64,000 nt of DNA from Escherichia coli (GTDB lineage: Bacteria > Pseudomonadota > Gammaproteobacteria > Enterobacterales > Enterobacteriaceae), in assembly GCF_029227855.1 (NCBI RefSeq), contig NZ_CP074356.1; one strand, 5' to 3'. The notes below the pieces were generated by a model. That model worked only from the letters and a program-made list of their open reading frames with translations. It was not told the origin of the DNA and made no database searches. Below are positions 9,997-38,984 of this stretch, one piece after another (the stretch's first letter is position 1; each line of letters opens with the position of its first letter). A program made the position numbers and the translations under genes.

Positions 9997-10482
9997 TATC
10001 GCGTCCTCAACAATGAATTTTGTGATGCAGTGCCTGGTGCCTCCAGGTGACGTTAACCAGTTAACAATTAACGTCGGATACAGAGAATCCACCCATAACA
10101 CTGTTTTTGGTTTTAACTGTTCCGCGTGCGCTCAGCCGCATTCACCGCATCACAAAATTCACTTTAAAAACGGCGGCAGAGCAGTCACGGAGTAAAACTG
10201 ATACCGCTAAACGTCACCAGAAAATTGATAACAGAGGGCGTTGCAGCGGGGTTGTCACTTAAGCGTATGGTCAACCTGACAACCCGGTGTCCTCAACGGG
10301 GAAGGAATAACCCCGCCATACTTACCGCCGCGCCATTTCGCGGGTTGCCACAACCGGAAGCGCACGGTCGAATTAAATTTAACGACACCGTACAGTGAGA
10401 CGAACTTCGCCGTGCGCTTTCGTGTTGTGTGCCTGCTTTTAACCACGTCAGGCGAGGTGGTATCCTTAAAATCACCACAGTT

Positions 10483-22944: not shown

Positions 22945-23135
22945 AAGATATGATGTGATGGCATTTTATAAAGTTGTTTTTTTGAAGTGTAAGATTATAC
23001 GATATTTTTAGCTACGCCAGAATAATTGCTGGCGTTTTTCTTTTTGAATAGATGTTCGGGCCTTACGCTAATGTAATTTTTTTCCTTCTTCGAACCAAAC
23101 CGTGTACACCATCCGTTATCTGCGGAGGTGAGGCT

Positions 23136-23351
23136 ATGAAATCCATGGATAAGTTAACAACGGGCATCGCCTACGGCACCTCTGCAGGCAGTGCTGGCTA
23201 CTGGTTTTTACAGTTGCTCGATAAAGTCACGCCCTCACAGTGGGCGGCAATAGGTGTATTGGGTAGTCTGGTATTTGGCATGCTGACGTATCTGACTAAC
23301 CTTTATTTCAAGATTAAAGAAGACAGGCGTAAGGCTGAGAGAGGAGAGTAA
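23136..23351 (+). CDS. class II holin
   Basis: 71-aa product [73 protein letters not shown] ggaggtgagg. Confidence 0.85.
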
Positions 23352-23355
23352 TCCA

Positions 23356-23700
23356 ATGACTCAAGTATACGAACTGGTTGTGAAAGGAGTCCGTAATTTT
23401 GAGAATAAAGTTGCGGTAACTTTAGCCTTACAGGACAAAGAACGCTTTGACGGTGAGATTTTTGACCTTGATATCACTATGGATCGTGTTGAAGGTGCTG
23501 CACTGGAGTTTTATGAGGCAGCAGCCAGAAGGAGAATCAGACAGGTGTTCTTGGATGTTGCTGCCGGGTTATGTGAAGGGGATGAGCAGTCGCCGGAAAA
23601 GCGCCCCATAATTTTAGAGGCGCAGAATGTGTGGATAACCTACAAAGGAAAGCTACCAGGAAGAATTACTGGTTATCTGAAGACTCCGCCGGAATGTTAA
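23356..23700 (+). CDS. YdfR-like lysis-cassette protein (DUF1327)
   Basis: 114-aa ORF MTQVYELVVKGVRNFENKVAVTLALQDKERFDGEIFDLD... resembles remembered YdfR. Confidence 0.7.
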   Translation: MTQVYELVVKGVRNFENKVAVTLALQDKERFDGEIFDLDITMDRVEGAALEFYEAAARRRIRQVFLDVAAGLCEGDEQSPEKRPIILEAQNVWITYKGKLPGRITGYLKTPPEC

Positions 23701-23938
23701 TTTTAACAGCATATTTCTCTTCCAGTAATGCCACCAGCCACTTGAAGGAATTTTGTTGTTCCTGGGACCATTTGGGGCTGTGTGATTCAAGCTGGAGCGA
23801 TGCCAGTGTTGGTTGCATTTGTTCCCTGGGAATTGACAATGCCAGATATGAAAATGCGACAGTAAGGGCATTAACATCATCCCGAAGCCTGGAAATGCAG
23901 TCGAGCAACTCCTGAAGAGAAATGGTGTTATTGTCCAT
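23666..23938 (-). CDS. hypothetical protein encoded antisense within lysis cassette
   Basis: 90-aa minus-strand ORF with good RBS (gagga, 6-nt spacer); acidic, protein-like composition. Confidence 0.45.
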   Translation of the reverse strand: MDNNTISLQELLDCISRLRDDVNALTVAFSYLALSIPREQMQPTLASLQLESHSPKWSQEQQNSFKWLVALLEEKYAVKINIPAESSDNQ

Positions 23939-24043: not shown

Positions 24044-24577
24044 ATGAACGTAAAAGTCAAATACGGCCTGTCGGCTGCCGTTCTGGCGCTGATTGGTGCT
24101 GGTGCATCTGCTCCCCAGATACTTGACCAGTTTCTGGACGAAAAAGAAGGTAACCACACAATGGCATACCGTGATGGTTCCGGCATATGGACCATCTGTC
24201 GGGGTGCCACAGTGGTGGATGGAAAACCCGTTTTTCCCAATATGAAACTGTCGAAGGAAAAATGCGACCAGGTTAACGCTATTGAGCGTGATAAGGCTCT
24301 GGCATGGGTGGAGCGCAATATTAAAGTACCACTGACCGAACCACAAAAAGCGGGTATCGCGTCATTTTGTCCCTATAACATTGGCCCCGGTAAGTGTTTT
24401 CCGTCGACGTTTTATAAACGGCTGAATGCTGGTGATCGTAAAGGTGCATGCGAGGCGATTCGCTGGTGGATTAAGGACAGGGGGCGTGATTGCCGCATTC
24501 GTTCAAATAACTGTTACGGTCAGGTTATTCGTCGTGATCAGGAGAGCGCGTTAGTGTGCTGGGGGATCGACAGATAA
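24044..24577 (+). CDS. phage lysozyme (endolysin) with signal-anchor-like N-terminus
   Basis: 177-aa ORF; hydrophobic N-terminal segment (LSAAVLALIGAGASA) consistent with a signal-anchor-release endolysin; lysozyme family assigned by position after the holin and resemblance to remembered prophage lysozymes. Confidence 0.85.
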   Translation: MNVKVKYGLSAAVLALIGAGASAPQILDQFLDEKEGNHTMAYRDGSGIWTICRGATVVDGKPVFPNMKLSKEKCDQVNAIERDKALAWVERNIKVPLTEPQKAGIASFCPYNIGPGKCFPSTFYKRLNAGDRKGACEAIRWWIKDRGRDCRIRSNNCYGQVIRRDQESALVCWGIDR

Positions 24578-34427: not shown

Positions 34428-35171
34428 ATGACCACACCAAATCCACTGGCAAAGACGAAAGGTGCGGGGACGACGTTCTGGATGTATACCGGCAACGGCG
34501 ATGCGTTTGCGAACCCTTTGTCGGACACTGACTGGCTGCGTCTTGCGATGGTGAAGGATCTGCAACCTGGCGAAATGACCGCTGATGCAGAAGATGACAC
34601 TTATCTCGATGATGAAGATGCAGACTGGAAAACGACAACCCAGGGGCAGAAATCCGTTGGTGATACTTCGGCGACGCTGGCCTGGCGTCCGGGTGACAGC
34701 GGGCAGAAAAAACTGGTTCAGTTGTTCGACTCCGGTGAAGTCTGCGCGTTTCGTATCAAATATCCCAACGGCACTGTTGATGTTTTCCGTGGCTGGCTGA
34801 GCTCACTGGGTAAAACCATTGCCTCAAAAGACGTGATGACCCGCACTGTGAAAATCAGCGGTGTGGGGCGTCCGTATCTGGCAGAGGAAGGCACTGAAAC
34901 CGTGAGCGTTACCGGGCTGACAGTATCACCGGCGTCTGCCAGTGTAAAAGTGGGAGCAACCACCACGCTGACCTTTACAGTAAAACCTGACGGAGCCAGT
35001 GACAAAGCGATCAGTGTGCATTCGTCAGATCCACAGACTGCCACGGTTACCCTGAACGGACTTGTGGCCACGGTAAAAGGCGTGAAGCAGGGCAGTGTCA
35101 GCATTGTGGGCATGACCGCTGACGGGAATTTTGTGGCTGTGGCTGCGGTGACTGTCAGCGCCGCAGGTTAA
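34428..35171 (+). CDS. major tail protein (lambda gpV-like) with C-terminal Ig-like domain
   Basis: ATG 34428 with SD aaggaggtgg; C-terminal Big_2-like region (VTGLTVSPASASVKVGATTTLTFTVKPDGA). Confidence 0.9.
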   Translation: MTTPNPLAKTKGAGTTFWMYTGNGDAFANPLSDTDWLRLAMVKDLQPGEMTADAEDDTYLDDEDADWKTTTQGQKSVGDTSATLAWRPGDSGQKKLVQLFDSGEVCAFRIKYPNGTVDVFRGWLSSLGKTIASKDVMTRTVKISGVGRPYLAEEGTETVSVTGLTVSPASASVKVGATTTLTFTVKPDGASDKAISVHSSDPQTATVTLNGLVATVKGVKQGSVSIVGMTADGNFVAVAAVTVSAAG

Positions 35172-35228
35172 CAGGACGATACTCATCATTTGCCCCGGTT
35201 ATCCGGGGCTTTTTTGCAGGTGGAGAAC

Positions 35229-35618
35229 ATGATGTTTCTGAAACAGGGCACGTTTAATTATGAAAAACAGTCCGTGGTGCTCAGTGAGCTGTCCGGGCTG
35301 CAGAGAATTGAATATCTGGCGTTTGTTCAGCAGCGAACGGCAAAGTTTGATGCCGGTGAGGGAGAACTGCCGGAGGCTGAACGACAGATTGCTTTTCTGC
35401 GGATGGGGATGGATATCAATGCCTGGCTGGTTTCCCGCTCACTGTGGAATGCGGATCAGTCTAAGGATGTAGAGACGCTTTGCGCATCCGTTATTACAAC
35501 ATGGTCGTATGATGCCCTGGGTGCGGGGGCGGAGATGGTTCTGTCGCTGAGCGGTATGGGGGCCATTGATAATGCCGGGGATGATGAGCATGAGGCGCTG
35601 ACGCCGGAAAAGTCCTGA
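35229..35618 (+). CDS. tail assembly chaperone G
   Basis: ORF between major tail and tape measure genes; followed by overlapping -1 frame ORF. Confidence 0.8.
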   Translation: MMFLKQGTFNYEKQSVVLSELSGLQRIEYLAFVQQRTAKFDAGEGELPEAERQIAFLRMGMDINAWLVSRSLWNADQSKDVETLCASVITTWSYDALGAGAEMVLSLSGMGAIDNAGDDEHEALTPEKS

Positions 35619-35626
35619 CGCGGGAA

Positions 35627-35956
35627 ATGCAGTTTGTCATGCGGCTTGCCCGGGAGTTCCGACGGGCAGACTGGCGGCGGATGCTGTCGGAAATGTCGGC
35701 CACTGAGCTTGGTGAGTGGGGCGATTATTTCCGGATGCAGAGCTTCAGTGATGTGTGGATGGATGCGCAGTTTGCCTCGCTGAAGGCATTGATCGTGAGA
35801 ATGGTGTCCGGCAGCAGTGATGCTGCGGTGGCTGATTTCAGCCTTTTACCGGAAGAGAACGGGATACCGGAGCGAACGGACGAAGAACTGATGCATCTTG
35901 GGGAAGGTATTTCCGGAGGTGTGCGTTATGGACCAGATAGCCAACCTGGTCATTGA
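35627..35956 (+). CDS. tail assembly protein T segment (probably expressed as a G-T fusion by -1 frameshift)
   Basis: Open frame in -1 relative to G, overlapping the G stop; A-rich slippery-like ggaaaag at 35606-35612. Confidence 0.6.
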   Translation: MQFVMRLAREFRRADWRRMLSEMSATELGEWGDYFRMQSFSDVWMDAQFASLKALIVRMVSGSSDAAVADFSLLPEENGIPERTDEELMHLGEGISGGVRYGPDSQPGH

Positions 35957-38900
35957 TTTGGGGATTGATGCGGCAGAGTTTAAAAATGAAATCCCCCGTA
36001 TCAAAAACCTTCTGAATGGTGCAGCCAGCGATGCAGAACGGTCTTCTGCCCGTATGCAGCGTTTTATGGAGCGTCAGACTCAGGCCGCCCGGCAGACAAC
36101 GCAGGCGGCGTCTTCGGCTGCAACAGCCGCATCCGTCCATGCGCAGACAGTGGAGAAGAACGCACAGGCTCATGAACGCATGGCCCGCGAGGTGGAGAAA
36201 ACCCGCCAGCGCATGGAGGCGCTGAGCCAGAAAATGCGCGAGGAACAGGCGCAGGCCATGGCTCTGGCGGAGGCTCAGGATAAAGCGGCTGCTGCGTTTT
36301 ATCGTCAGATTGACAGTGTGAAACAGGCCAGTGCGGGGCTGCAGGAATTACAGCGTATTCAGCAGCAGATCCGACAGGCCAGAAACAGTGGCGGGATTGG
36401 TCAGCAGGATTATCTGGCGCTGATTTCTGAGGTTACGGCGAAAACCCGTGTTCTTACACAGGCTGAGGAAGAGGCTACCCGACAGAAAGTGGCGTTTATC
36501 CGTCAGCTTAAAGAGCAGGCAACCCGCCAGAATCTTTCTTCTTCTGAGTTGCTTCGTGCTAAGGCTGCCCAGCTGGGGGTAAGCAGTGCTGCAGAAGTGT
36601 ATATCCGCAAAATGGAGCAGGCAGGAAAAGCCACGCATTCGCTGGGTCTGAAAAGTGCAGCGGCCCGTCAGGAGATAGGCGTTCTGATAGGTGAACTGGC
36701 CCGCGGAAATTTAGGTGCGCTGAGGGGATCCGGAATAACGCTGGCTAACCGTGCCGGGTGGATAGACACATTGATGTCACCGAAAGGCATGATGCTTGGC
36801 GGGGTTATTGGCGGTATTGCCGCGGCTGTCTATGGTCTGGGTAAAGCCTGGTATGACGGTCAGAAGGAGGGGGAAGAATTTAACCGCCAGCTGTCGCTGA
36901 CGGGGCATTATGCCGGAGTCACTGCCGGGCAGCTGTGGACGCTCAGTCGTGCTATTTCCGGGAATGGTATCACGCAACATGCTGCAGCCGGTGCGCTGGC
37001 TCAGGTGGTGGGTAGTGGTGCATTTCGTGGAAACGATATCGGTATGGTGGCGAGAGCTGCCGCACAGATGGAGCGATCGGTTGGCCAGTCGATCAGCGAT
37101 ACCATAAATCAGTTTAAGCGGCTGAAGGATGATCCTGTAAATGCCGCGAAGGCTCTGGACAATGAGCTGCATTTTCTTACTGCCACTCAGCTTGAGCAGA
37201 TACGTGTCCTTGGGGATCAGGGACGGTCCAGTGATGCTGCACGGATAGCCATGTCTGCACTGGCAGAGGAAACCGGTCGGCGTACTGCGGATATTGATAA
37301 TAACCTCAATGCGCTTGGTAGTACGCTGAAGTATCTGTCTGATTTGTGGAGTCGTTTCTGGGATGCGGCCATGAATATTGGTCGTGAAGACTCGCTGGAT
37401 GAACAAATTGCCGCTTTACAGGAGAAAGTGTCGCGGGCGAAAAGACTCCCCTGGACGGCATCATCTTCTCAGGTTGAATACGATCAGCAGCGTCTTAACG
37501 ATCTTCAGGAGAAAAAACGCCAGAAGGATTTGCAGGATGCAAAAGAGCAGGCAGAGCGGAATTATCAGGAGCAACAGAAACGCCGTAATGCTGAAAATGC
37601 TGCACTGAACCGGATGAATGAAACTGAAGCAGCACGGCATCAGCGTGAAATTGCGCGTATTAATGCCATGCAGTACGCCGATCAGGCTGTCAGGGATGCG
37701 GCGATACAACGTGAAAATGAACGTTACGAGAAAGCCCTGGCATCCGGTAAGAAAAAAACACGCGAAACCCGTAATGATGAGGCCACCCGGTTATTGCTGC
37801 AGTACAGTCAGCAACAGGCACAGGTGGAAGGGCAGATTGCTGCTGCAAGACAGTCAGCAGGCATTGCCACTGACAGGATGACAGAAGCGCATAAACAGCT
37901 TCTGGCTCTGCAGCAGCGCATCAGCGACCTGGACGGGAAAAAACTGACGGCAGATGAAAAGAGTGTGCTTGCCCGTAAAGATGAACTGATTCAGGCATTG
38001 ACGCTGCTGGATGTAAAACAGCAGGAGCTTCAGAAACAGACGGCACTCAACGAGCTGAAGAAAAAAACAATTCAGCTGACCAGTCAACTGGCTGAAGAAG
38101 AGCGCGCTCAGCGTCAGCAACATGACCTGGATATCGCCACGGTGGGTATGGGTGATCAGCAGCGGCAGCGATATCAGGTACAACTGAGTCTTCGCCAGAA
38201 ATACCAGCAACAGCTGGAGCAGTTGAGGCGGGATAGTGAGCGGAAAGGGACATATAACACGGATGACTACAGAAAGGCCGAGCAGGCGCTGACGGAGAGC
38301 CTGAACCGACAACTGAGTGAGAATCGCCGTTACTGGCAACAGCTTGAAATTGCTCAGGGTGACTGGAAAAACGGAGTCCTGCGTGCACTCCAGAATGTCA
38401 CTGAGAATGCGGATAACACAGCCGGGACAGTGGAACAGTTGTTCACGTCTGCGTTCAGTAGCATGAGTGACTGGCTGGCGACATTCTGTACTACAGGCAA
38501 ACTCAATTTCAAATCCTTCACCTCTTCTGTGCTGTCAGATATGTCCAGAATCATGGCTCAGATAGCTTTAATGAAAGCGGTAAAAGGCATTGCTTCCGCG
38601 CTGCCTTTTGATTTTGTAGCTAATGCTGATGGCGGTGTTTATCAGTCGGCTGATTTGAGTCGCTACAGTGGCACGGTGGTTAACCGTCCGACGTTTTTTG
38701 CTTTTGCAAAAGGCGCGGGTGTGATGGGGGAAGCTGGGCCTGAAGCCATTCTGCCACTGCGTCGTGGTGCTGACGGTAAGCTGGGGGTTGTGGCGGATAT
38801 TGGTGGTTCAGGTATGGCGATGTTTGCCCCGCAGTACAACATCGAGATCAATAACGATGGCACGAACGGGCAGATAGGTCCGGCTGCCCTGAAGGTGGTT

Positions 38901-38984
38901 TATGACCTTGGGAAAAAAGCGGCAGCGGACTTTATGCAACAGCAGGCCCGTGATGGTGGTCGGTTAAGTGGAGCATATCGGTAA
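35928..38984 (+). CDS. tail tape measure protein (gpH-like)
   Basis: 1018-aa ORF, long helical/coiled region rich in Q/A/R/E, SD ggaggtg. Confidence 0.9.
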   Translation: MDQIANLVIDLGIDAAEFKNEIPRIKNLLNGAASDAERSSARMQRFMERQTQAARQTTQAASSAATAASVHAQTVEKNAQAHERMAREVEKTRQRMEALSQKMREEQAQAMALAEAQDKAAAAFYRQIDSVKQASAGLQELQRIQQQIRQARNSGGIGQQDYLALISEVTAKTRVLTQAEEEATRQKVAFIRQLKEQATRQNLSSSELLRAKAAQLGVSSAAEVYIRKMEQAGKATHSLGLKSAAARQEIGVLIGELARGNLGALRGSGITLANRAGWIDTLMSPKGMMLGGVIGGIAAAVYGLGKAWYDGQKEGEEFNRQLSLTGHYAGVTAGQLWTLSRAISGNGITQHAAAGALAQVVGSGAFRGNDIGMVARAAAQMERSVGQSISDTINQFKRLKDDPVNAAKALDNELHFLTATQLEQIRVLGDQGRSSDAARIAMSALAEETGRRTADIDNNLNALGSTLKYLSDLWSRFWDAAMNIGREDSLDEQIAALQEKVSRAKRLPWTASSSQVEYDQQRLNDLQEKKRQKDLQDAKEQAERNYQEQQKRRNAENAALNRMNETEAARHQREIARINAMQYADQAVRDAAIQRENERYEKALASGKKKTRETRNDEATRLLLQYSQQQAQVEGQIAAARQSAGIATDRMTEAHKQLLALQQRISDLDGKKLTADEKSVLARKDELIQALTLLDVKQQELQKQTALNELKKKTIQLTSQLAEEERAQRQQHDLDIATVGMGDQQRQRYQVQLSLRQKYQQQLEQLRRDSERKGTYNTDDYRKAEQALTESLNRQLSENRRYWQQLEIAQGDWKNGVLRALQNVTENADNTAGTVEQLFTSAFSSMSDWLATFCTTGKLNFKSFTSSVLSDMSRIMAQIALMKAVKGIASALPFDFVANADGGVYQSADLSRYSGTVVNRPTFFAFAKGAGVMGEAGPEAILPLRRGADGKLGVVADIGGSGMAMFAPQYNIEINNDGTNGQIGPAALKVVYDLGKKAAADFMQQQARDGGRLSGAYR

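What the first reader, a model, noticed from the sequence alone, without database searches (positions are those of the whole stretch)
35600..35630. Probable programmed -1 frameshift site joining tail chaperones G and T
The T frame is -1 relative to G and overlaps the G stop codon. An A-rich heptamer ggaaaag (35606-35612) lies just before the G stop, analogous to the lambda G/GT slippery site but not identical to the canonical X-XXY-YYZ pattern.
Basis: partly seen in the sequence, partly recalled or inferred. Interest (0 to 1): 0.3.

Follow-up and report, generated by a model that had tools for sequence, protein, structure and literature searches.

The report
Lambda-type G/GT tail chaperone frameshift site
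This is the ordinary, well-known ribosomal -1 frameshift site that lambda-like phages use to make a small amount of a fused G-T tail-assembly chaperone; it uses the heptamer GGAAAAG, which the phage N15 record already annotates as slippery, instead of lambda's GGGAAAG.

Summary
G (35232-35618) is a lambda gpG equivalog. The T reading frame is the -1 frame, open from 35594 to 35956. G_GAA_AAG (35606-35612) is the only slip-prone motif in the 25-nt stretch where a shift must occur.

- The slip-site lysine aligns with lambda's.
- The heptamer is unchanged in relatives down to about 34-41% protein identity, including its three wobble positions.
- Conservation of the -1-frame protein, with synonymous codon changes, starts at the heptamer, upstream of ATG 35627.
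- That ATG is not conserved (CTG, CTT, CGG or AAG in relatives) and has no usable Shine-Dalgarno sequence.
- No start codon lies in the -1 frame upstream of it.

I found no convincing stimulatory element, either a downstream structure or an upstream SD.

The same heptamer is annotated as "slippery sequence for -1 translational frameshift" in the phage N15 record, and the Gifsy-1/2 records describe T as a frameshift product. The feature is therefore already known. What is lacking is annotation: PGAP and phage records for this allele (about a third of complete E. coli genomes) list T as a stand-alone 109-aa protein, and the 241-aa fusion is absent from public protein sets. Interest is low.

The parts
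34428..35171 (+). Major tail protein gene (lambda V-like, with C-terminal Ig-like domain); upstream neighbour that defines the module
   Evidence: Pfam Phage_TTP_12 1.2e-66 and Big_2 4.8e-13; coordinates mapped from the mEp460 and PGAP annotations
35192..35215 (+). Terminator-like hairpin (GCCCCGG-TTAT-CCGGGGC followed by T6) between V and G; context only
   Evidence: annotated as a terminator in the mEp460, Ayreon and N15 records
35232..35618 (+). Gene G: tail assembly chaperone, 128 aa, 14.1 kDa (an alternative ATG lies at 35229)
   Evidence: PF06894 1.8e-39; TIGR01674 equivalog 185 bits against a cut-off of 74; SD GGTGGAG 5 nt upstream; mass
35594..35618 (+). The only stretch where a G-to-T frame change can occur: from the last upstream -1-frame stop (TGA 35591-35593) to the G stop
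   Evidence: stop-codon map; junction dissection
35606..35612 (+). Slippery heptamer G_GAA_AAG. P-site tRNA-Glu would move from GAA to GGA and A-site tRNA-Lys from AAG to AAA.
   Evidence: Invariant in 13 divergent representatives including the three wobble bases. 76/76 G/T-context hits in IMG/VR carry it. The identical heptamer is annotated as a slippery sequence in N15.
35616..35618 (+). G stop codon TGA, one codon after the heptamer
35612..35626 (+). -1-frame codons GTC CTG ACG CGG GAA (V L T R E), upstream of any start codon. They can be translated only after a frameshift, yet they are under protein-level constraint.
   Evidence: columns 148-152: Leu is invariant with CTG/CTA/CTC and Glu is invariant with GAA/GAG. 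No ATG, GTG or TTG lies in 35594-35626.
35627..35629 (+). ATG used by PGAP and phage records as the start of a stand-alone 109-aa T; most likely an internal Met codon of GT
   Evidence: It is replaced by CTG, CTT, CGG or AAG in relatives. Anti-SD pairing is -4.3 kcal/mol at 0-nt spacing, against -6.4 to -10.8 at 4-6 nt for G, Z-like, H and L (M: -5.6 at 9 nt).
35612..35956 (+). T part of the GT fusion (114 codons plus stop). The predicted GT is 241 aa, 27.0 kDa, with junction ...ALTPEK|VLTREMQFVMRLAREF...
   Evidence: PF06223 5e-15; TIGR01715 equivalog 134 bits against a cut-off of 77 on fusion residues 132-238; fusion built; mass
35928..38984 (+). Tape measure gene H (downstream neighbour). 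It starts inside the end of T, in the G frame. Its SD GGAGGTG and ATG are encoded by the T motif GGVRYG.
   Evidence: TMP_2 5e-49 and Tape_meas_lam_C 2.5e-23; SD -10.8 kcal/mol at 6 nt; same arrangement in lambda

Best explanation
This is a programmed -1 ribosomal frameshift of the lambda G/GT type. Most ribosomes translating G (35232-35618) read GAA-AAG-TCC and stop at TGA 35616, giving the 14-kDa chaperone G. A small fraction slip back one base while tRNA-Glu (P site, GAA) and tRNA-Lys (A site, AAG) sit on G_GAA_AAG (35606-35612). tRNA-Lys re-pairs perfectly with AAA. tRNA-Glu re-pairs with GGA through two Watson-Crick pairs and a central G.U. Decoding then continues with GTC CTG ACG... and ends at 35954-35956. 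The product is a 241-aa, 27-kDa G-T fusion with junction ...TPEK-VLTREMQ...

Shown here: the geometry, the homology, and the conservation of the site and of the -1-frame coding upstream of ATG 35627.

Inferred: that slippage actually happens; its frequency, which by analogy with lambda's 30:1 G:GT ratio would be a few percent; and whether both tRNAs or only tRNA-Lys slip.

Inferred from homology to lambda (PMC5009743): G and the G part of GT coat the tape measure protein H; the T part recruits the major tail protein V; neither ends up in the virion. No extra stimulatory RNA element appears to be required.
For: - Module order is V-G-T-H, with Pfam and NCBIfam equivalog hits to lambda G and T that abut at the junction.
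- The T frame is -1, and the shift is confined to 25 nt whose only Z_ZZN or heptamer motif is G_GAA_AAG.
- In an alignment of fused proteins, the slip Lys (K127) is an invariant column that coincides with lambda's G_GGA_AAG lysine.
- I compared 13 representatives carrying the site, with median 41% and minimum 34% protein identity. Only 18 of 226 codon columns keep an invariant third base, and three consecutive ones are exactly the heptamer's wobble positions.
- In the same set, only 7 of 42 invariant-residue columns keep a single codon, and GAA and AAG are two of them. The codon before the heptamer changes residue (Pro, Ala, Leu, Glu) but always ends in G.
- Of the IMG/VR hits to a pattern that leaves all three wobble positions free, 76/76 followed by a T domain read GGAAAAG. 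Of the hits elsewhere, 19 of 21 differ.
- -1-frame residues between the heptamer and ATG 35627 are conserved with synonymous variation (Leu CTG/CTA/CTC, Glu GAA/GAG). In the 0 frame this stretch lies after the stop.
- ATG 35627 is absent in Gifsy-1, Gifsy-2, Fels-1, N15, lambda and others. It lacks a spaced SD, and no other start codon exists in the open -1 stretch.
- Viable isolated phages (mEp460, Tritos, Ayreon, HannyBb and others) carry this region at 98-99.9% identity.
- The N15 record annotates the same heptamer as the -1 slippery sequence. The Gifsy-1/2 records call T a frameshift product.
- A_AAG is the most shift-prone tetramer in E. coli, and V_VV.A_AA.R heptamers are the best heptamers (PMC4066793). 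G_GA in the X_XX position is a recognised non-canonical class (PMC5009743).
Against: - No protein, ribosome-profiling or reporter data exist for this allele.
- The heptamer is not canonical. Sharma et al. (PMC4066793) found that A_AAG alone is near background without a strong stimulator.
- I found no stimulator. Downstream folding is no better than shuffles (z 0.45 and -0.09). The consensus structure across 13 relatives is -4 kcal/mol with no covariation. The upstream GAGG is unexceptional (25th percentile).
- The efficiency of G_GAA_AAG without stimulators has, to my knowledge, not been measured.
- The representatives in the wobble test were chosen from loci that carry the heptamer. Other clades use other sites (G_GGA_AAG, G_GCA_AAA_TAG, G_GAA_AAA_TAG), so conservation holds within a large clade, not across the family.
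- In this allele an ATG does lie 8 nt after the G stop, so some termination-reinitiation cannot be excluded.
Confidence: 0.88

Rival explanations
1. T is made as a separate 109-aa protein from ATG 35627, for example by termination-reinitiation after the G stop 8 nt upstream, and no functional frameshift occurs. This is how PGAP and most phage records annotate it.
For: An in-frame ATG exists 8 nt after the G stop. PGAP and the mEp460, Tritos and cdtI records annotate it so. The stand-alone T sequence is on at least 1000 contigs, while the fusion is in no protein set. The ATG is present in several E. coli-type clades (column 153).
Against: The ATG is replaced by CTG, CTT, CGG or AAG in Gifsy-1/2, Fels-1, N15, lambda, L074/L081 and L075. 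No other conserved Met follows. Anti-SD pairing is weak (-4.3 kcal/mol, close to the background mean of -3.6) and directly abuts the ATG. The five -1-frame codons upstream of the ATG are under protein-coding constraint. This reading does not explain the invariant heptamer wobble bases. In lambda the T domain works as part of GT (PMC5009743).
Confidence: 0.05
2. Both routes operate: GT is made by frameshifting, and some free T is made from ATG 35627 in this E. coli clade.
For: The ATG is close to the G stop, which favours coupling. The ATG is retained in the window, L026, L027, L039 and L071/L073 clades.
Against: Met and Leu interchange at this column looks like ordinary hydrophobic substitution. 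There is no usable SD. No role is known for free T in lambda (my own knowledge, not checked here).
Confidence: 0.05
3. The frame change is produced elsewhere or by another mechanism: RNA polymerase slippage on the A run, or ribosomal slippage at another position in 35594-35618.
For: The heptamer contains an A4 run. The junction has not been sequenced at the protein level.
Against: Four A's is far shorter than the runs known to give transcriptional slippage (my own knowledge). No other in-phase Z_ZZN motif exists in the 25-nt stretch. In relatives with different flanks only the heptamer is invariant.
Confidence: 0.02

Closest known systems
Phage lambda G/GT programmed -1 frameshift (Levin, Hendrix & Casjens 1993; Xu, Hendrix & Duda 2004, 2013, 2014, as cited in PMC5009743)
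   Same: Same gene order V-G-T-H. G and T are NCBIfam equivalogs. T is in the -1 frame. The slip-site lysine is at the homologous alignment column. No downstream structure is detectable at this locus or conserved among 13 relatives including lambda. The T C-terminal GGVRYG motif overlaps the RBS and start of H.
   Different: The heptamer is G_GAA_AAG instead of G_GGA_AAG, so the P-site tRNA is Glu with imperfect re-pairing. The G stop lies 1 codon after the site instead of 5. The T part is shorter (114 against 144 codons). An ATG happens to follow the G stop. GT protein identity is about 35%.
Phage N15 genes 14/15 (NC_001901)
   Same: An identical heptamer GGAAAAG in the same phase at the homologous position, annotated in the record as 'slippery sequence for -1 translational frameshift'.
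   Different: Flanking codons differ (GCG GAA AAG CCC TCG ... with the stop 5 codons later). N15 has no ATG at the position of 35627 (CTG). The proteins are diverged (N15 is among the 13 representatives with 34-41% identity).
Salmonella prophages Gifsy-1, Gifsy-2 and Fels-1 G/T
   Same: CCG GAA AAG NCC TGA is identical, with the G stop one codon after the heptamer. Nucleotide identity is 67-70%. The Gifsy records describe T as part of a frameshift hybrid.
   Different: Leu (CTG or CTT) replaces the Met of 35627, so no stand-alone T start is possible there.
Hexanucleotide and tetranucleotide A_AAG -1 sites (IS1222 G_CGA_AAG, Bacillus cdd A_CGA_AAG, IS3 C_CAA_AAG) and E. coli dnaX A_AAA_AAG
   Same: All rely on the shift-prone E. 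coli tRNA-Lys(UUU) moving from AAG to AAA, and P-site re-pairing is imperfect in the IS and cdd cases (PMC5009743, PMC4066793).
   Different: Those sites depend on strong stimulators (a pseudoknot or hairpin, and an upstream SD in dnaX). None is detectable here.

Membership tests
Lambda-type G/GT tail assembly chaperone with programmed -1 frameshift | Two overlapping ORFs located between the major tail protein gene and the tape measure gene | tested here: met
   V 34428-35171, G 35232-35618, T frame 35594-35956, H 35928-38984
Lambda-type G/GT tail assembly chaperone with programmed -1 frameshift | Upstream ORF homologous to lambda gpG | tested here: met
   PF06894 1.8e-39; TIGR01674 equivalog 185 bits against a cut-off of 74
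Lambda-type G/GT tail assembly chaperone with programmed -1 frameshift | Downstream ORF in the -1 frame homologous to lambda gpT | tested here: met
   Frame arithmetic; PF06223 5e-15; TIGR01715 equivalog 134 bits against a cut-off of 77
Lambda-type G/GT tail assembly chaperone with programmed -1 frameshift | Slip-prone sequence inside the overlap, near the end of G, at the position homologous to lambda's site | tested here: met
   G_GAA_AAG 35606-35612; its Lys is an invariant column aligned with lambda's slip Lys
Lambda-type G/GT tail assembly chaperone with programmed -1 frameshift | Slip site under selection at the nucleotide level (synonymous positions conserved) | tested here: met
   Three consecutive invariant wobble bases where only 18/226 columns are invariant. 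76/76 GGAAAAG in G/T context, while 19/21 hits elsewhere carry other variants. Caveat: sequences are related and were selected from the clade that has the site.
Lambda-type G/GT tail assembly chaperone with programmed -1 frameshift | T has no conserved independent start, and its coding constraint extends upstream to the slip site | tested here: met
   ATG 35627 is not conserved. SD pairing is weak and unspaced. Leu and Glu codons upstream of it vary synonymously in the -1 frame.
Lambda-type G/GT tail assembly chaperone with programmed -1 frameshift | Strictly canonical X_XXY_YYZ heptamer (typical of the family, not required for membership) | tested here: not met
   XXX is GGA. The same non-canonical heptamer is annotated as the slip site in N15, and G_GA is a recognised X_XX class (PMC5009743).
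Lambda-type G/GT tail assembly chaperone with programmed -1 frameshift | A G-T fusion protein is produced at a few percent of G and is required for tail assembly | not testable with these tools
   Needs a reporter assay, lysate proteomics or phage genetics. The exact fusion is absent from public protein sets.
Stimulator-dependent bacterial -1 PRF (dnaX / IS3-IS911 type) | Downstream hairpin or pseudoknot a few nt after the slip site | tested here: not met
   MFE z-scores are 0.45 (100 nt) and -0.09 (48 nt) against shuffles. The RNAalifold consensus is -4 kcal/mol with a covariation term of 0.06.
Stimulator-dependent bacterial -1 PRF (dnaX / IS3-IS911 type) | Shine-Dalgarno-like sequence 6-17 nt upstream of the slip site | tested here: inconclusive
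   GAGG 35592-35595 lies 10 nt upstream at -5.6 kcal/mol, which is only the 25th percentile of windows in its own gene. It is strong in one relative (L039, AAGGAGGTG, -13 kcal/mol) and absent in N15 and lambda.

The most novel reading that the evidence does not exclude
G_GAA_AAG may be a self-sufficient slip site that reaches lambda-like efficiency (a few percent) in E. coli without any stimulator. The P-site tRNA-Glu would re-pair on GGA through a central G.U. It would be the prevalent natural slip site of enterobacterial lambda-type tail chaperone genes, being present in about one third of complete E. coli genomes. Systematic screens tested only X_XXZ_ZZN and Z_ZZN motifs and so did not cover it. 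The heptamer choice across relatives (GGGAAAG, GGAAAAG, GCAAAA+stop) could then tune the G:GT ratio in different phages.
Probability: 0.5. Interest if true: 0.25.

Novelty: already known. Interest (0 to 1): 0.1.

Why it matters
Biologically this is a textbook case and changes nothing. Its practical value is for annotation. In this very common prophage tail module (1843 of 5426 complete E. coli genomes), PGAP and most phage records list 'tail assembly protein T' as a stand-alone 109-aa protein. The predicted 241-aa GT fusion is absent from a collection of 15 billion proteins. A joined CDS with ribosomal slippage at GGAAAAG would be the better annotation. A minor point for recoding specialists: the non-canonical G_GAA_AAG is more widespread in this family than lambda's canonical site, its stimulator-free efficiency is apparently unmeasured, and searches restricted to X_XXY_YYZ miss it.

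Tried and rejected
- Downstream stimulatory structure: folding of 35613-35712 and 35613-35660 is no better than shuffles, and the consensus fold of 13 relatives has no support. Rejected.
- Upstream SD-like stimulator (GAGG 10 nt upstream, as in dnaX): its energy is at the 25th percentile of its own gene. It is strong only in L039 and absent in the N15 and lambda clade. Not supported.
- Heptamer rarity: GGAAAAG is actually over-represented in the window (20 against 10 expected), so rarity is not an argument. Only the geometry singles out 35606.
- Second site with a long -1 extension at 23595: the extension looks like the shadow of a reverse-strand ORF. Dropped.
- Other slip sites within 35594-35618: none are in phase.
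- Solved structures by sequence for GT: none.
- Exact look-up of the predicted fusion, with either start: not in the collection.
- Literature: Xu et al. 2004 (Mol Cell) and Licznar et al. 2003 (EMBO J) are not held. Full-text searches for GGAAAAG with frameshift, for Gifsy, for mEp460 and for N15 gave nothing specific. Bock et al. 2019 (PMC6787027) did not test a Glu P-site codon.

Full report
**Observation.** The sequence is as described.
- Positions 35606-35612 read GGAAAAG.
- The upstream ORF runs in frame 0 (position mod 3 = 0) and ends ...CTG ACG CCG GAA AAG TCC TGA, with the stop at 35616-35618.
- The downstream ORF is in frame 2, which is -1 relative to it.
- The last stop in that -1 frame upstream is TGA 35591-35593. 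The -1 frame is therefore open from 35594 to 35956 and overlaps the last 25 nt of the upstream gene.
- Any change of frame must occur within 35594-35618.
- In that stretch the only in-phase motif that lets an A-site tRNA re-pair in the -1 frame is A_AAG, embedded in G_GAA_AAG.
- The heptamer is not rare in itself: the window has 20 copies against 10 expected.
- Only this copy combines a long open 0 frame upstream (145 codons), a 0-frame stop one codon later and a long -1 extension of 114 codons.

**What the genes are.** The region is a lambda-type tail module.
- It comprises the major tail protein (34428-35171), G (35232-35618), the T frame, and the tape measure gene H (35928-38984), followed by M, L, K-like ORFs and further large ORFs (not family-tested).
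- G matches Pfam PF06894 at 1.8e-39 and T matches PF06223 at 5e-15.
- On the conceptual fusion, the NCBIfam equivalog models for lambda G (TIGR01674, residues 1-128) and lambda T (TIGR01715, residues 132-238) abut at the junction. Both score far above their cut-offs.
- The DNA is 98-99.9% identical to isolated lambdoid phages: mEp460, cdtI, Tritos, Ayreon, HannyBb and the PhiR phages.
- It is at least 95% identical to prophages in 1843 of 5426 complete E. coli genomes.
- None of the records I opened joins G and T. PGAP and most phage records start T at ATG 35627, and Ayreon starts it later.

**Comparative evidence.** I collected lambda, N15, Gifsy-1, Gifsy-2 and Fels-1 from annotated records, plus 80 IMG/VR loci found with an alignment of fused G-T proteins. 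These gave 31 distinct junction sequences.
- In every case the T-domain frame is -1 relative to G and opens only a short way upstream of the G stop. The two exceptions are near-identical loci, L081 and L083, with one shared junction sequence.
- About 22 junctions carry G_GAA_AAG in the same phase. These include N15, the three Salmonella prophages (only 67-70% identical in DNA) and clades down to about 50% protein identity to the window.
- Lambda and one relative carry G_GGA_AAG.
- A separate clade carries G_GCA_AAA or G_GAA_AAA directly followed by TAG.
- In the alignment of fused proteins, the slip-site lysine is an invariant column that coincides with lambda's.

**Selection on the heptamer.** I used 13 representatives with the GGAAAAG site, at median 41% and minimum 34% pairwise identity.
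- Only 18 of 226 ungapped codon columns have an invariant third base. Three consecutive ones are exactly the wobble positions of the heptamer.
- Only 7 of 42 columns with an invariant degenerate residue use a single codon. GAA and AAG are two of those.
- The codon preceding the heptamer encodes Pro, Ala, Leu or Glu but always ends in G.
- As an independent check I scanned IMG/VR with a pattern that leaves all three wobble positions free. All 76 hits followed by a T domain read GGAAAAG. Of the hits in other contexts, 19 of 21 read something else.
- Caveat: these sequences are related, and the wobble test was done within the clade that has the site.

**Is T made on its own?** ATG 35627 lies 8 nt after the G stop, so termination-reinitiation is conceivable. 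Four results argue against it as the main route.
- The corresponding codon is CTG or CTT in Gifsy-1, Gifsy-2 and Fels-1, CTG in N15, lambda and L084-87, CGG in L075, and AAG in L074/L081. No other Met is conserved nearby.
- Its best anti-SD pairing is -4.3 kcal/mol, against a background mean of -3.6, and it abuts the ATG with no spacing. Starts such as G, Z-like, H and L have -6.4 to -10.8 kcal/mol at 4-6 nt.
- The five -1-frame codons between the heptamer and the ATG (V L T R E) are conserved as protein with synonymous variation: Leu as CTG/CTA/CTC and Glu as GAA/GAG. In the 0 frame this stretch lies after the stop.
- There is no ATG, GTG or TTG in the open -1 stretch upstream of 35627.

These codons can therefore be translated only by ribosomes arriving from G.

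**Mechanism.** The best-supported reading is slippage with tRNA-Glu on GAA in the P site and tRNA-Lys on AAG in the A site.
- After a one-base backward shift, tRNA-Lys pairs with AAA. This is cognate for the single E. coli tRNA-Lys(UUU).
- tRNA-Glu then faces GGA, which gives two Watson-Crick pairs and a central G.U.
- Decoding resumes at GTC. The predicted GT is 241 aa and 27.0 kDa, with junction ...ALTPEK-VLTREMQ.... G is 128 aa and 14.1 kDa.
- Sharma et al. (PMC4066793) found A_AAG to be the best tetramer and V_VV.A_AA.R the best heptamers in E. coli. They also found that tetramers need a strong stimulator.
- Atkins et al. (PMC5009743) list G_GA as a recognised imperfect X_XX.
- The invariant first G argues that P-site re-pairing contributes. 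This is inference.
- I found no stimulator. Downstream folding equals that of shuffles. The consensus fold of 13 relatives is -4 kcal/mol without covariation. The GAGG 10 nt upstream is unexceptional.
- The frequency is unknown. Lambda's G:GT ratio is about 30:1 (PMC5009743).
- Function is inferred from homology. G and the G part of GT bind the tape measure protein, T recruits the major tail protein, and neither is in the virion (PMC5009743).

**Comparison with what is known.** This is a member of the lambda G/GT family. All sequence-testable defining features are met, and production of the fusion itself could not be tested here.
- The non-canonical heptamer is not new. The N15 GenBank record annotates GGAAAAG (10027-10033) as 'slippery sequence for -1 translational frameshift'.
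- The Gifsy-1/2 records, whose sites are identical to the window's (CCG GAA AAG TCC TGA), describe T as a frameshift product.
- I could not read Xu, Hendrix & Duda 2004 to check whether this clade is listed there.

**Verdict.** The feature is already known and of low interest.
- The remaining points are an annotation gap and an unmeasured efficiency. The exact fusion is absent from a collection of 15 billion proteins, while the stand-alone T is on at least 1000 contigs. The stimulator-free efficiency of G_GAA_AAG has not been measured.
Use lysates rather than virions. Trypsin cleaves at the junction lysine, so EMQFVMR, or a non-tryptic junction peptide, is the diagnostic species.

Noticed in passing
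window 35192-35215: A strong terminator-like hairpin (7 G-C pairs followed by T6) lies between the major tail gene V and G. The mEp460, Ayreon and N15 records annotate it as a terminator. It could lower expression of G, T and H relative to V.
   Followed up: partly
window 35913-35956 (and lambda, L004 1528-1550): The conserved C-terminal T motif GGVRYG (GGA GGT GTG CGT TAT GGA) also encodes the Shine-Dalgarno sequence (GGAGGTG, -10.8 kcal/mol) and the ATG (35928) of tape measure gene H, which overlaps T by 29 nt. Lambda has the same arrangement, so part of the motif's conservation may reflect the H start signal.
   Followed up: partly
L064, L065, L068, L069, L070 (about 1590-1605); L066 (about 1625-1641); L075 1575-1596: A related clade has the slip site pushed against the stop codon: CTG GCA AAA TAG (G_GCA_AAA) or CTG GAA AAA TAG (G_GAA_AAA). 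L075 carries both G_GAA_AAG and GCA AAA TAG, 9 nt apart. These variants have poor P-site re-pairing and possibly use the adjacent stop as a pause.
   Followed up: no
L039-L046, about 1561-1577: One clade has a perfect 9-nt Shine-Dalgarno sequence (AAGGAGGTG, -13 kcal/mol) 8 nt upstream of the heptamer, reminiscent of the dnaX stimulator. The window has only GAGG (-5.6 kcal/mol), and N15 and lambda have none.
   Followed up: partly
window 23595-23601, inside ORF 23356-23700: This is the only other GGAAAAG in the window with a long -1-frame extension (104 codons). It lies between a 99-aa ORF (23052-23351) and a 177-aa ORF (24044-24577), neither of which I identified. The extension probably mirrors a reverse-strand ORF (23666-23938) rather than a frameshift product.
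   Followed up: partly
L053 1201-1428: A G homologue is cut short at codon 75 and continues into unrelated sequence. This is probably a recombination or deletion junction in a degraded prophage.
   Followed up: no
public annotation of window 35627-35956: The stand-alone 109-aa 'phage tail assembly protein T' is on at least 1000 contigs in public data. The predicted GT fusion, with either G start, is in none. Even the lambda RefSeq record lists G and T as separate CDS without a join.
   Followed up: yes
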